A stretch of 64,000 nt of DNA from positions 2,542,001-2,606,000 of the forward strand of contig JAYWIR010000001.1 in the NCBI GenBank assembly GCA_036172245.1, in the 5' to 3' direction. Below the pieces are notes generated by a model. The model saw only the letters and a list, made by a program, of their open reading frames with translations, did no database searches and was not told the DNA's origin. The stretch comes from Raillietiella orientalis (Eukaryota). Positions 39,275 to 44,639 of this stretch are shown one piece after another. The number at the start of each line of letters is the position of its first letter. Position 1 is the first letter of the stretch. The translations under genes were made by a program, and so were the position numbers.

Positions 39275-39608
39275 CAGTGGTACCTCGGTACTCGTCGGTA
39301 ATTCGTTCCGGAACCCTTGACGAGTGCCGAAATTGACGATTACCGAACGAATTTTAATTCAACCATTTTAGGATCCATTATTAACGCTTAAGATGCACAG
39401 AAAGCACACAAAAAGGAACGATTCGGGAGGCACTCTAAGGAAATGTTCGGCACGATTCGCGAGCTACCATGAAACGAAAGCATTCACTTGTGAGAGTGGG
39501 ATGTAGAGTTCCGAGCATGCAACGAGTGTCGAAACATTTTTCTTGTGAAAATAAGACGAGAATTGAGTTTGACGAGTTCCGACACCGTCGAGTACCGAGG
39601 TATGGCTG
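39275..39608. mobile_element. pogo/Tigger-type (Tc1/mariner) MITE, 334 bp
   Basis: TIRs CAGTGGTACCTCGGTACTCGTCGGT versus reverse complement of the right end CAGCCATACCTCGGTACTCGACGGT; subterminal TTGACGAGTnCCGA repeats. The TA target duplication is degenerate (TG / TT). Confidence 0.75.
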
Positions 39609-39631
39609 TTTAGGGAAACGCTGTTTGTATC

Positions 39632-39661
39632 CTAGAAGCAAAGCAAAGCAATCTTTCTGCA
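39632..39661 (+). repeat. Identical 30-nt core of the direct repeat flanking the Utopia-like element (left copy)
   Basis: CTAGAAGCAAAGCAAAGCAATCTTTCTGCA is identical to 43751-43780. Confidence 0.95.
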
Positions 39662-39946
39662 CCACTTCCTTGGGCAGGCTGGATACGCAGACGTTCCTCT
39701 ACGTTCCTACTGGTCCCAGACACGTGCCAAACAAAAGGACAGACAAAGACAAGTGCAGCAATTAATCATAAAAACAATAAAAAGAGGAGAATACTGGTAG
39801 TGGTTTCCAAGAAGGACCCGTAGAGAAACCGTTTCACCAGTGGGGCCGCTCGTCCACTCCGTCGCAAGACACCAGAGCAAAAGCAACTTTATTGAAGCAA
39901 ATAACACTGCAAACACCGAAAGAACTGGAAAACACTGTAGGAAGCA

Positions 39947-39971
39947 CAGACATTAAGCTGAGAAGAACAGA
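39947..39971 (-). pseudogene. U2 snRNA fragment (approx. nt 39-63), the Utopia target sequence; not a complete gene
   Basis: Minus strand TCTGTTCTTCTCAGCTTAATGTCTG matches U2 TCTGTTCTTATCAG(C/T)TTAA(C/T)ATCTG at 22-23 of 25 positions and lies directly after the element's AATAAAAAA end. Confidence 0.75.
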
Positions 39972-42900
39972 TTTTTTATTTTGAGCAATCTTTACAGTTG
40001 CGTATAGATGAACATGGAAGCCTCTGCTTTATCTGCCTTCTCTTCCATACAAGGCCTCACTTTGTGACCACGCTCTTCAAGCGTGTTTATCCTTCTTCGG
40101 TCGGCGTGTCAAAGAGCCCTCTTTGGATAGCAGCATGTCCCAGCCGGTGATCCCAGTAGTGCGCCCTGCTATGCTGTATGCATGAGGCAACCATGTGGGG
40201 CCTCCTTTTTTCTGCACACTGCTTCAGGATACCTATTTCGCAAAGTGCTCCATCGTTCCGCGGATCCCAACTTCCAAAGAGGCCGATGGCGATGGCCCTC
40301 ACGCCAGCCTGAAGTTCTTTCCCTCGTAGCTGCAAGACAATCTCCTGTTACTTATTTTCTTGATCCGTCTTCACGAGGAGAAATACCTCCTTAGTATTTT
40401 CGAATGGACAGGAAGCATCCAGGATTAGTATCTTGCCTGTTTTTTGCAGTACAAGGTCGGGTCTTAGGCTGGAGTGGCACCCAGGTACCGTTTGATTCGC
40501 CGACATGACCTGCCATCCAGCGGTGTCGATTGCTGCTGCCTTCAATCTCTCCACGATATCATCGTGCCTCGCTGTGTACATACGTGAATGCCTCATACAA
40601 TGGTTTGGAGCACGAGGCAATGTCTCGTCCCAGATCACACAGCATAGACACGATCCTTTTCCTATGGGTCTTCTCTTAACGCCCCTTGCAGGCAGCGGAT
40701 TTTGCTTCGCCGCATTGATGAATCGATAGTCGCCGAAGCGCAGATAGTTTCCTGTTGTTAGGAAGTAGTGTAGCGAACGTTGGAGTCCTGAGAAACGCAT
40801 GGCTTTCCCTTGGTCAGGATGCTTTTTTGTAAGCTCCAGTCATGTTCTTTCTCGCTGCGGGTTGCGCACCATTGAGCTGAATTTCCTCCTCATTGATGCG
40901 TCCAGTGTCATCTCTGCTAACTGCAGCTTGACTTCACCTCCTTCAAAGTTTCAAAATGCAGACATGAGGTGGGATGCTTGCATTTCCGTGGTCCATATAC
41001 TTCCGTATACTCTTAATATCACCACACTTATCCGGGAAATTTCACCTTATGCTTCGCCAGATAGAAATCTTTTGTGATCGTCTTCCGTATGTGGCTGCAG
41101 AAGTTTTTTAACTACCACGAAGTGACCGGCTTACCAGAATCCCTAACTGAGACATCTGGAGATGTTTGGAGCTTGAAGCAGTTACCGATGATGAAGGTAT
41201 CCGCTTCGTTCGATAGCTGCATCAGTCCTGAGCAACCTTTCCTTCTGCCCCCGTGTAAGTACTGGTTAGCAACTCTTGCGAGCAGTGAAAGTGTGGACTT
41301 TACCATTTTCCTTATTTTTTTATCAGCGTACTTCCGGTTTCCCGACGGATGCGTGCATAGTCTCTGAAAGCGCACTAGGCTTGGAAAGAAAACAGTTTTC
41401 ATTGCATCCATCTTCTGCCAGGGAAATAGCCAGGATCACGGGATAGTTCCGACTTCCCCAACGATGTCTTCCTTGCTTGGGACGGGATTGAATACCTCTA
41501 TCCCGAACGTTTTCCCCAAATGTTCACAGGTTTTTGAGATTGTTTGGTTGTGTATCACTCCGCTGCTAACTTCCAATTTGATATTTCTCAAACCACGGGG
41601 TGTTTCTCAGCACTAGAATAATCCTGTGCATTATGAAGAACTGATGGTGAAAGCCCAGCTCGTGTTGCAAGATCTTTAAAGCAGCGTGGCTGCTGTTGTA
41701 AATCTTTCTCTTTATTAGCCAGTAAGATTAAATCAGCGTACGCCAGGAGAGATTCTGTGCCGTAGCTTTCCGCATAATTTGAATGAGTGGCTTCAGGGGA
41801 TTACAGAGAACTCAAGGGGCATCCTTGTTTTACTCCACTTTGAAAGATGAGCGGTATAGTGGCTGCTGATTGCAGATGAATGTAAGTGGAAATTGTTGGA
41901 ATAAAGTTCTTTAATTCATCTAAGAAAAGAGTCACCTACTCCTGCTTCTGTGAGAGTTCTTAAGAGCATTTCGCGACTCATGGAGTCAAATGCGTTTATT
42001 AGATCCACAAAGACTATTTCAATGCCATCTGCAGATCGTCTTGTATGGTCTAACTTCGTCTGCAGCACAAATTATGATCTCATACACCGTCAAAGGGTAG
42101 AAATCCCTTTTGTTGAGGGCAGATATGCTGTTCTCAAGGATCCAGTCCCTGATTCGTGTTGCTAGGCACTTGGCTTGCAACCTGTTTATGCTATTTTCGA
42201 TCGAAATCGATCTCCAATCGGCCATACTGCAAGATTCTGTGGATCCCACAGTAGGATGGTTCTTGTGGATTCCATGATGATAGACTCGGTTTTTCCTTTA
42301 ACAAGATATTAAAGATCATCGTTATAATCTTTGCTTCTGGATATACTGATCTCCACCAATTGTAGGTGATTTCATCTTGCCCCAGTGAATAGTTCCCTGC
42401 TTCCCGCAACCATCCGGCGACCACTTCCTCGGATAGGGAAGGAATAGGCTGAATTTCCTTGGAAAGTTCTTATGCTCAAAGAGATCTTCGAAATGCTCCT
42501 CAACCTATTGCTTTCAATAGGGCAACGTCTTTCTTGTTGCCCCAATATGACCAGAAAAGCTCGCTCCTGTTTTGTAGATAAAATCGCTGTATTTCCGATC
42601 TGTTCTGTGTGTCAATGGGATTCTCTTTCGCATATGCTCTCGGTATTTTAACATTCAACACGCTTCAAATTTTAGAGGTTAGTTCATCATATACCAGTTC
42701 AAACAGGTCCATAGTGTCTCTTCTCTAGAGGCCGTCAAGGTGTTTTCTCTCTTCTCGTCGTAAATTCTTCCGCAAGTTCAGACTGCCTCATTCTATTCCT
42801 TCTCGCCATCCTCCTCGGTTTGGGGATGTTTTCCTGGGGGGACGCCTCCTGGGTGGTTCATCTTCCAAGAAACGGCCATTGATGATGGAGTTTACTAGGA

Positions 42901-43720
42901 CTCCGGTCCTTTAAATCAATCGATTCCTCGAACAGGTGTTGGTATTTTCTAAGGGAGGAATTTTCTCTAATGAATCAGGTTCCAACTCTACAGGGACTAT
43001 ACCCGTAGAATATTCAGATGATGAAGGCATTCCTTCATTCTGTGGAACTTCTATTCGCCAATTGTTTTGGAATTCACTTATCAACTCATTTAAACTGACA
43101 TTTGGATTATCGATGAGAGCTCCATCGTCTTCTGCATCTGAGATGCCAACTTATGCTTCTCTAGGATTCTCAGCAGTCAATACTTCCGGATTCTTCTCAC
43201 TCAGTTCTCCCACCACGTTGACACTCATTTCCTCCTATGATGAGATTTTTACCATGTCACTCAGATTTCCCAAGAAGCTTTCTTCTGGCGGCGCTATCAT
43301 GCTGCCTGCATCTTCCGGCTGCCAGTGTTCTTGCGAAGATGACTTCCCTCTTCAAATCTCCAGGTCATGCTAGATCTGATGGTTTAATAAGCCCTCTCCT
43401 TGTTGAGAAGGCTAAATCACAGTCTGACTTGTTGCAGTTGAACCTCATTGCCGCATCTACAATGACTGGGCGGACGGTAGGTTCTCCTATACTGAGAAGC
43501 TGTTCGGAACAGACATGGTCGGGAGGTCTTCTAGACAATACAATTGTCTGGAATCTTCGACATCTGTATCTCATTTGCTCTACTTCAAGTTCGTGCATTG
43601 TCTAAGTTTGATAGATTGTACTTGGTAGTGGGTAGCAGCAGTTCTGCTCACGAAGTTGCATCCTAGCACGCCACACCACAGGATTGTCGCCAATGGAAAT
43701 AGTATGGTGACCAGGCAAGC
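39972..43720 (-). mobile_element. Utopia/NeSL-clade (R2-like, restriction-like endonuclease) non-LTR retrotransposon, near full length, inactivated
   Basis: N-terminal zinc fingers (CGVLGC; YRCRRF..RRPPDHVC; CNKSDCDLAFSTRRGL). RT motifs GQDEITY, WRSISI, DLINAFDS, GVKQGCPLS, LAYAD-L. Then PWQKMDAMKT, HPDQGKAM, FLTTGNYLRFGDYRFI, C..C...ETLP...NHC, and RLE motifs RHDDIV, RPDLV, ILDASCPFEN, GSWDPRN, SRAHYWDH. Stop at 40087, short 3' UTR, AATAAAAAA. Many frameshifts and stops. Confidence 0.92.
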
Positions 43721-43750
43721 CTGTTGTTTCTAGAATACACCGTTTACATT

Positions 43751-43780
43751 CTAGAAGCAAAGCAAAGCAATCTTTCTGCA
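43751..43780 (+). repeat. Identical 30-nt core of the direct repeat flanking the Utopia-like element (right copy)
   Basis: Identical to 39632-39661. Confidence 0.95.
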
Positions 43781-44639
43781 TCACTGTTCTGAAAGAGCAT
43801 GCACTATAAACAGTCAATTTCAGAGTTTACTGGTTTTAAATGCTTTCCTCCTGATCTGCAAAAAATCGTCATTACCTGATATACGGGAACGTGGTTTGGA
43901 AATCTTTCTTATGATACGAATGTGTTTCTGGATGAACTTTTGTAATTTGGAGACTGTTATTTCCATTTTTCTTCCCAGACACCAGGAAAACCGAATGTCA
44001 AATTGCGTTATAGCTTATCTGACTAATTATTTTCCAATAAATATCCAGAATTTGAATTAATAAAACATGGTTTTACCCATAAATCACTTCTTGCTAATAT
44101 CCTCCTAGGTACTCTGCAGATAAAGGCGACCAAATGAAAATCTTAAACACTACATTGTTCATTGTTCCATGACTAACAGAAGCACTGCTACACGGGGCAA
44201 TGAAATATGATGAATGATTAAACTTAAACATACATACACACACACAAGATAAATCTCATATAAGATTAATCCTGCATGAATATTGCAAGCATGAAAGAAT
44301 TTAGACATGCAATAGCGAAATGTGGGTGGCAAGCATTGATTTTGAGGAAGCATTCACAGCAATATCTAAGTAAATAATTCCAAAATGTAAACCATACCGT
44401 TGCAGAATTCCAAGATACGAAATTTCAGATCATTATTCACATATATCTCACGTGTAGTAAGGATGACTGGAGATGTGTAAAAAATCAAAAAATACAATGA
44501 AACTGGTTGATCAAGACAAGATCTCTTCGTCAGAGTGTTTGAAATTAACGCCCTCGTAAATTCGGTTTGTTTAGCTTTTCTCGGTCCCATGTGTTTGAAC
44601 ACCACCAGAACACATTTTCTGACAGTGGATAAGAATTCA

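What the first reader, a model, noticed from the sequence alone, without database searches (positions are those of the whole stretch)
39947..43720. U2-targeting (Utopia-type) retrotransposon carrying only a 25-nt orphan piece of its U2 target
Seen: the element ends AATAAAAAA and is followed at once by TCTGTTCTTCTCAGCTTAATGTCTG. The U2 match then stops: there is no Sm site or downstream U2 at the right spacing, and no U2 nt 1-38 at the 5' junction, where the ORF runs up to about 43720. Established: Utopia elements insert after about nt 38 of U2 snRNA genes, so their 3' junction reads TCTGTTCTT. Inference: this copy either came from a read-through transcript that carried a short piece of target to a non-U2 locus, or inserted into a pre-existing U2 fragment. 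The first route would let a site-specific element escape its target and seed new mini-targets. The family may be undescribed in this species.
Basis: partly seen in the sequence, partly recalled or inferred. Interest (0 to 1): 0.7.

Follow-up and report, generated by a model that had tools for sequence, protein, structure and literature searches.

The report
Displaced tandem Utopia retrotransposon junction
A dead jumping gene that normally lands inside U2 spliceosomal RNA genes sits here in ordinary DNA, and its short "orphan" piece of U2 is really the seam joining it to the front end of a second such element, the pair having apparently been copied out of a U2 locus together as one 4-kb block.

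Summary
In detail: a decayed RLE-type non-LTR element (minus strand, 39972-43750) ends AATAAAAAA and meets U2 at nt 39; the match (23/25 to this genome's U2) then stops and no other U2 lies nearby. But the stub is not the end of the insertion. The next 290 nt are the 5' end of a second Utopia (0 of 1000 shuffles reach the score against a full-length copy elsewhere), and full-length Utopias here begin right after U2 nt 58. So the stub is a tandem junction, like the 14-bp spacers of R1 arrays. The 4089-bp block (element A, stub, head of B) lies between 30-bp exact (49-bp, 88%) repeats with no U2 head, promoter or tail, so it came from elsewhere, most likely as a tailless copy of a read-through RNA. 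Genome-wide, 76 junctions carry U2 tails of about 16 to over 400 nt; only 1 of 76 has a same-strand U2 promoter and few show flanking duplications. Read-through carriage is thus plausible, target seeding unshown. Known family and known kinds of event; the arthropod 20-nt 5' segment is a modest twist. The scan noted U2-capped Utopia retrocopies in this genome before.

The parts
43751..43780 (.). Left copy of the 30-bp exact direct repeat (49 bp at 88% when extended, 43737-43785); probable target-site duplication, host DNA
   Evidence: longest exact repeat in 200 shuffles: 15; single-copy apart from its partner; A's homology to other Utopias starts at its edge
39972..43750 (-). Utopia element A, decayed, 5'-truncated at about codon 2-3 of the ORF: N-terminal zinc-finger region (~43750-43380), RT (~42450-41650, YAD motif ~41740), C-terminal zinc knuckle and restriction-like endonuclease (~40660-40350, RPDLV ~40464), stop ~40087, 3' UTR ending AATAAAAAA
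39952..39971 (-). U2 snRNA nt 39-58 (19 of 20 identical to own U2): junction between A's 3' end and B's 5' end; a 4-of-5 match runs on to 39947
39662..39951 (-). First 290 nt (5' untranslated region) of a second Utopia element B, cut off exactly at the right repeat, no poly(A)
   Evidence: score 60 against the downstream element of L080; 0 of 1000 dinucleotide shuffles; alignment ends at the repeat; best of 670 control segments 41
39632..39661 (.). Right copy of the 30-bp direct repeat (extended 39618-39666)

Best explanation
At a U2 gene locus two Utopia elements stood head to tail, A upstream of B, separated by U2 nt 39-58, the 20-nt segment that full-length Utopias of this genome keep at their 5' junction (shown as a pattern; whether it arises by staggered nicking or rides on the element's RNA as a leader is inferred, the latter slightly favoured). 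A most likely inserted into the site regenerated in front of B, as R1 does (inferred). An RNA running through A, across the 20 nt and into B was then reverse-transcribed from a point 290 nt inside B, without a poly(A) tail, into a staggered break at a non-U2 site; synthesis stopped at the start of A's ORF and repair left a 30-49-bp duplication (block structure shown; RNA route inferred). The copy has been dead and decaying since. Step confidences: stub is a two-element seam 0.9; block moved as a unit 0.8; through RNA 0.6-0.7 given that it moved.
For: B homology and its end at the repeat. L080 has the same order: Utopia 3' end, exactly 20 nt of U2, then a full-length second Utopia with zinc finger at +907, RT and RLE; its two elements are 57% identical, so hetero-tandems form. 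L097 repeats the order with a decayed stub. Two more full-length 5' junctions (L146, L148) end their U2 match at nt 58. 10 of 76 junctions end the U2 match at 19-21 nt. Flank duplication at the window scores 68 against a null maximum of 30 in 2998 mismatched pairs. Other dispersed units have duplications at their edges: L070 11 bp, L105 16 bp, L071 12 bp, L119 ~39 bp; in L070, L105 and L119 the U2 end overlaps the duplication, as priming by annealing predicts. U2 tails range from about 16 to over 400 nt, past the mature U2 end, on 36 contigs; U2 promoter sequence was found only in L112/L011, L084 and L157 among loci L001-L179. R1 precedent: PMC2718515 passages.
Against: No source copy or sibling of A or B was found (best 66-76%), so the donor array is not seen. 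About 70 of 76 junction loci show no significant flanking duplication (exact repeats >=12 bp in 4 of 76 against 2 of 600 null pairs; p=0.002), and L099's long duplication may be a host repeat. A perfect 30-bp core is younger-looking than A's decay; the 49-bp, 88% reading fits the decay but overlaps 14 nt that also resemble Utopia (9 of 14 to host; about 7 of 14 to L149). No uninterrupted U2 1-58 in front of a full-length element was found (7 hits across the cut site, control 3), which a simple staggered-nick duplication predicts. Of the 10 junctions with 19-21-nt stubs only L080 (coding evidence), L075 and L091 (alignment; T-rich, so weaker) are followed by a recognisable Utopia head; L079, L092, L103, L126 and L129 are not explained. 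The junction pattern needs ~15 nt of U2, so shorter stubs were not sampled. No empty allele could be checked.
Confidence: 0.55

Rival explanations
1. Permuted single element moved as DNA: a full-length Utopia flanked by two copies of U2 39-58 looped out by recombination, and the circle was broken, lost about 550 nt of its 5' region and was captured at a staggered double-strand break. A and B are then one element.
For: The order ORF-3' end-stub-5' end is exactly a circular permutation; A lacks about 860 nt of 5' region relative to L080's full-length element and B supplies the first 290. No poly(A); long duplications suit break repair.
Against: B's nearest known 5' region is that of L080's second element, while A's nearest relatives are others (N-terminus L149 70% against 64% for L145; endonuclease L139, L099, L133 66-71% against 59%). 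Hetero-tandems exist in this genome (L080, L097). Both points are indirect.
Confidence: 0.2
2. Built in place: B and then A inserted into a dispersed U2 gene or fragment at this locus; later deletions removed the U2 head, A's 5' UTR and most of B, and the repeat arose by a separate event.
For: Uninterrupted U2 fragments that span the cut site exist outside genes (L038, L039, L215-L219); the region is old and rearranged (MITE 8 nt from the extended repeat, siblings at most 81% identical).
Against: Both Utopia boundaries coincide with the repeat copies; no U2 head, promoter or tail within the fetched flanks; such empty fragments are few (7 hits, control 3) against 77 junctions.
Confidence: 0.13
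3. One reading: the insertion ends with a 25-nt carried U2 piece (or a pre-existing 25-nt fragment) followed by host DNA.
For: The match does run to 25 nt (23 of 25); such stub-then-host units exist elsewhere (L105, L119, L087).
Against: The following 290 nt align to a Utopia 5' region and the duplication lies beyond them.
Confidence: 0.07

Closest known systems
Utopia, U2 snRNA gene-targeting RLE non-LTR retrotransposons of the NeSL clade (Kojima and Jurka 2015, PMC4640811)
   Same: Zinc fingers, RT, zinc knuckle and RLE in one ORF; 3' junction at U2 nt 39; 3' end AATAAAAAA as in Utopia-1_IS of Ixodes (S1 Fig). Tandem insertion (Nasonia), 20-bp duplications (reptiles) and off-target copies with short U2-like flanks (turtles, crocodilians) are all in that paper. 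Its S1 Fig shows 20-nt stubs in pea aphid and one bark beetle copy.
   Different: The text says arthropod Utopias make no duplication; here full-length elements keep U2 up to nt 58 at their 5' junction. The text reads off-target U2-like flanks as weakened target specificity and, in the parts read, does not discuss carriage of long U2 tails or of a two-element seam to non-U2 sites.
Tandem R1 arrays and non-28S R1 copies of Drosophila (Stage and Eickbush 2009, PMC2718515)
   Same: Copies separated by exactly the target duplication, formed by insertion into the duplication at the 5' end of a resident element; some copies outside rDNA carry upstream or up to 14 nt of downstream 28S.
   Different: R1 uses an APE endonuclease (own knowledge) and the 28S gene; the spacer is 14 bp; carried flanks are short, and a moved two-element seam was not in the passages seen.
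Tailless retropseudogenes (Noll et al. 2015, PMC5322556)
   Same: RNA copied from an internal point without an oligo(A) tail, primed by 2-18 nt of complementarity to the target, flanked by duplications; U2 is a known source.
   Different: Described for L1 in therian mammals and for small RNAs, not for a 4-kb Utopia read-through RNA in an arthropod.

Membership tests
Utopia | Non-LTR element with RT and a C-terminal restriction-like (PD-D/ExK) endonuclease, no APE domain | tested here: met
   RT and RLE motifs read in the frames; homology over RT to RLE with other RLE elements. Pfam gave no hit on the window's own fragments; RVT_1 hit the relative L080 at 6.8e-18.
Utopia | 3' end joined to U2 snRNA at nt 39 | tested here: met
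   Window junction; same junction at 77 pattern hits, control 0; relatives sit behind U2 promoter and head at L112 and L157.
Utopia | One to three N-terminal zinc fingers, no Myb domain (criterion used in PMC13188248) | tested here: inconclusive
   N-terminal zinc-finger region present and shared with U2-joined copies. Absence of Myb was not scanned on the decayed N-terminal region.
Utopia | RT groups with Repbase Utopia/NeSL in a tree | not testable with these tools
   No named Utopia, NeSL or R4 sequences were on hand. In a rough tree of 30 rows A grouped with five copies from this genome's U2-linked loci (support 83), apart from the L175/L176 group (L176 lies beside 28S-like sequence), sponge R2-like proteins and APE LINEs; L084b, also from a U2 locus, fell with L175/L176. 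A has a long branch and two rows were dropped for short coverage.
Keno (Tx1 clade, same U2 site) | APE-type endonuclease | tested here: not met
   The element carries an RLE; definition from PMC4640811.
R2 | Insertion at the 28S rRNA site | tested here: not met
   No rRNA in the window; junction is U2. R2 proteins are only the nearest solved relatives of the L080 RT.
Intact or in-situ disrupted U2 gene | Promoter and nt 1-38 upstream, Sm site and 3' stem-loops downstream | tested here: not met

The most novel reading that the evidence does not exclude
In this arthropod Utopia acts as a pump that scatters U2 locus RNA over the genome: read-through RNAs from Utopia-filled U2 loci (single elements or tandem arrays) are copied tailless into unrelated sites, which explains the 70-odd promoterless U2 3' halves of variable length; full-length elements carry U2 nt 39-58 as an RNA leader that rebuilds a target in front of themselves; and the roughly 500 U2 nt 1-37 fragments, which end at the Utopia cut site, come from the same enzyme. 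A site-specific element would then keep making its own targets outside U2 genes.
Probability: 0.25. Interest if true: 0.62.

Novelty: new variant of a known kind. Interest (0 to 1): 0.4.

Why it matters
The locus itself is a dead fossil. It matters as a correction and a lead: short U2 stubs behind Utopia copies, also visible in published alignments, can be seams of tandem arrays rather than signs of relaxed targeting, and a piece of such an array can leave the U2 locus whole. If read-through carriage is the main source of the dispersed copies, it bears on how elements that target a low-copy gene persist (the open question posed in PMC4640811) and on off-target risks of RLE retrotransposons used for gene insertion.

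Tried and rejected
Decayed full U2 downstream of the stub: no Rfam hit and no credible alignment to 30 U2 loci; rejected. U2 head upstream: none. A extending upstream of the left repeat: best z 4.3 against mononucleotide shuffles in T-rich DNA, not collinear, 1 of 12 comparisons; not accepted, although about 15 nt at the repeat's outer edge resemble the start-codon region of L150. B continuing beyond the MITE: no match in 12 comparisons. Self-cleaving ribozyme at Utopia 5' ends: no Rfam family in 4 loci or in B. Protein search with A's endonuclease fragment: 0 of 422 candidates. Sequencing runs for an empty allele: none was listed, which is no evidence. Bacterial promoter scan: not applicable, nothing found. 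Empty-site paralogue: left flank is single-copy. L175/L176 were fetched as possible intact Utopias but appear to be another, at least partly rDNA-linked group. Literature searches for Utopia tandem or read-through carriage returned only the papers cited; the library lacks most subscription journals and Repbase Reports.

Full report
Observation. On the minus strand AATAAAAAA (39980-39972) is followed by the 25-mer at 39971-39947. It matches the U2 3' part of this genome at 23 of 25 positions: 19 of the first 20, a mismatch, then 4 matches. Rfam finds no U2 in the window, and the 6 kb upstream hold no U2 nt 1-38 (score 19, null maximum 25). Upstream lies a decayed non-LTR element with N-terminal zinc-finger region, RT, zinc knuckle and restriction-like endonuclease, broken by many stops and frame changes. 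Its coding homology starts at about codon 2-3, near 43750.

A direct repeat brackets more than the element: 30 bp exact (43751-43780 and 39632-39661), 49 bp at 88% when extended (longest exact repeat in 200 shuffles was 15). Between the cores lie 4089 bp: element A (3779 bp), the stub and 290 further bases. These 290 bases have no close copy in the genome but align to the 5' region of a full-length Utopia in locus L080 (score 60; 0 of 1000 dinucleotide shuffles), better than to any of 670 control segments (best 41), and the alignment ends at the repeat. So they are the head of a second element, B.

The stub as a seam. A 20-nt junction pattern has 77 hits on 36 contigs, control 0. I examined 76 (75 fetched, plus the window; one hit with an intact left side was treated apart as L038). 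The U2 match runs from about 16 to over 400 nt, in the long cases past the mature U2 end into gene flank; ungapped it ends at 19-21 nt in 10 of 76. L080 reads Utopia 3' end, exactly 20 nt of U2, then a full-length Utopia of another family (57% identical to the first). L097 shows the same order with a decayed stub, and L075, L091 and L122 are followed by sequence like Utopia 5' regions (z 9.7, 7.9, 15; T-rich, so weaker). Of 30 loci fetched from 48 hits for the N-terminal region, most show no U2 in the 1.5 kb upstream, but L146 and L148, besides L145 (= L080) and L150 (= L097), end a U2 match at nt 58 just before the T-rich 5' UTR. U2 39-58 is therefore the usual 5' junction of full-length elements here. 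In L146 and L148 the U2 sequence is disturbed between about nt 32 and 43, and no unbroken U2 1-58 stands before a full-length element; this slightly favours a U2 leader on the RNA over a staggered nick (inference). Five of the ten 19-21-nt stubs (L079, L092, L103, L126, L129) remain unexplained; L119 is closed by a duplication and L114 by a MITE. The pattern cannot see stubs under about 15 nt.

Did the block move? There is no U2 head, promoter or tail at the window. U2 promoter sequence, taken from L112, matched only L112/L011, L084 and L157 among loci L001-L179; among the 76 junctions only L112 has it on the same strand. Eight of 76 have a U2 head at the 5' junction, seven without promoter. 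Flank duplications: the window scores 68, L099 115, L119 41, against a null maximum of 30 in 2998 pairs; L070, L105 and L071 are weaker (p 0.002-0.011). Exact repeats of 12 bp or more occur in 4 of 76 loci against 2 of 600 null pairs (p 0.002). In L070, L105 and L119 the U2 end overlaps the duplication. Against this: about 70 of 76 loci show no significant duplication, L099 may be a host repeat, boundaries were set automatically, no donor or sibling of A or B was found, and no sequencing run was listed for an empty-allele test.

Mechanism. Shown: block structure, seam identity, hetero-tandems elsewhere in the genome. Inferred: A entered the target kept in front of B at a U2 locus; a read-through RNA was copied from an internal point in B, tailless, into a staggered break elsewhere, and stopped at A's ORF start. 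The main rival is a permuted DNA circle of one element; A's nearest relatives differ from B's, which favours two elements only indirectly. In-place assembly with later deletions needs both ends to fall on the repeat by chance. The stub lacks nt 1-38, so this copy did not seed a whole target; unbroken dispersed fragments across the cut site are few (7 hits, control 3) and all seven are partial.

Membership. RLE plus the nt 39 junction meet the working definition of Utopia; Keno (APE) and R2 (28S) are excluded. No named Utopia or NeSL sequences were on hand. In a rough RT tree A grouped with five copies from U2-linked loci (support 83), on a long branch; two rows were dropped for short coverage and one copy from a U2 locus fell elsewhere. 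The best named relative of the L080 RT is a spider protein at 38%; an arthropod host is inferred from this and from the Ixodes-like 3' end. Whether the families are catalogued for this species could not be tested.

Literature. PMC4640811: I read parts 1-4 of 5 of the text, S1 Table, parts 1, 4 and 6 of 8 of S1 Fig and search passages; figures (including the 5' junctions of Fig 1C) and S2-S6 Figs were not seen and may bear on the 20-nt segment. It reports tandem Utopia in Nasonia, 20-bp duplications in reptiles, none in arthropods, and off-target copies with short U2-like flanks; S1 Fig shows 20-nt stubs in aphid and beetle copies, without comment in the text read. PMC2718515 (passages) describes R1 tandem arrays spaced by the target duplication and non-28S copies with carried flanks. 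PMC5322556 (passages) describes tailless retropseudogenes including U2. PMC13188248 (passages) gives the no-Myb criterion. Other papers were seen as listings only. Searches found no account of a displaced Utopia tandem seam or of long U2 tail carriage; the library is partial.

Earlier notes of the scan describe U2-capped Utopia copies outside U2 genes and a stacked insert in this genome; they agree with what I had already found and are not counted as support.

Verdict. A real, dead Utopia fossil; the stub is a tandem seam, and the block was probably copied out of a U2 locus. Each ingredient has a precedent in Utopia or R1; the combination and the arthropod 20-nt 5' segment make it a variant. 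Interest 0.4.

Noticed in passing
G000 genome-wide; L180-L214: A 21-nt pattern from the U2 5' end has 527 hits, control 0. All 35 sampled are short U2 5' fragments, nearly all nt 1-6 to about 32-37, ending at or just before the Utopia cut site; none matched Utopia coding sequence in the next ~470 nt; 6 of 35 have adjacent repeats of 7-15 bp against 10 of 1190 null pairs. They look like tailless U2 retropseudogenes; which enzyme made them is unknown.
   Followed up: partly
G000 genome-wide; C30 near 2.72 Mb (L084, L157) and C389 (L112): No intact U2 gene was found: the top 30 of 46 Rfam hits all lack nt 1-38 and the 7 hits across the cut site are partial. The three promoter-bearing U2 heads found are all cut off at nt 33-38, two with Utopia sequence directly behind. 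Working genes are probably in an unassembled or withheld array.
   Followed up: partly
L101 (C30:1093286-1093636), L120 (C5:3130044-3130332), also L121, L130, L098: Tail-to-tail pairs of U2 3' halves, each with a Utopia 3' end in L101 and L120; several long tails contain a decayed inverted U2 piece about 190 nt downstream, hinting at a tail-to-tail U2 gene pair as donor.
   Followed up: no
window 39277-39610: MITE with terminal inverted repeats, 8 nt from the extended right repeat; at least 40 matches in the genome, best sibling 81%. A copy of the same MITE sits directly after the U2 stub in L114.
   Followed up: partly
L122 (C9:2537790 +): After a 22-nt stub come several scrambled pieces of the U2 5' end and then a Utopia-like 5' UTR, suggesting repeated template jumps at a 5' junction.
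   Followed up: partly
L147/L029, L074, L102 (C30:2676598, C3:6216562, C30:2227371): Related short Utopia copies; L147 has the zinc-finger start only about 1.4 kb from the U2 junction, so it lacks most of the RT: a possible internally deleted, non-autonomous group.
   Followed up: no
L175 (C81:72000-78500), L176 (C72:174000-179500): Tandem RLE elements with long open frames (1231 and 821 aa, open-ended, in L175); L176 runs into 28S rRNA-like sequence (recognised by eye); a separate group from the U2-joined copies.
   Followed up: partly
L096 (C18:2696338 -): A near full-length Utopia body lies inverted directly upstream of a short Utopia 3' end and 46-nt U2 stub, like a 5' inversion.
   Followed up: no
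window 1-64000: GC falls from about 0.6 (1-20 kb) to about 0.3 (47-64 kb); an exon resembling a long-chain acyl-CoA ligase (recalled likeness, untested) lies near 300-500 on the minus strand.
   Followed up: no
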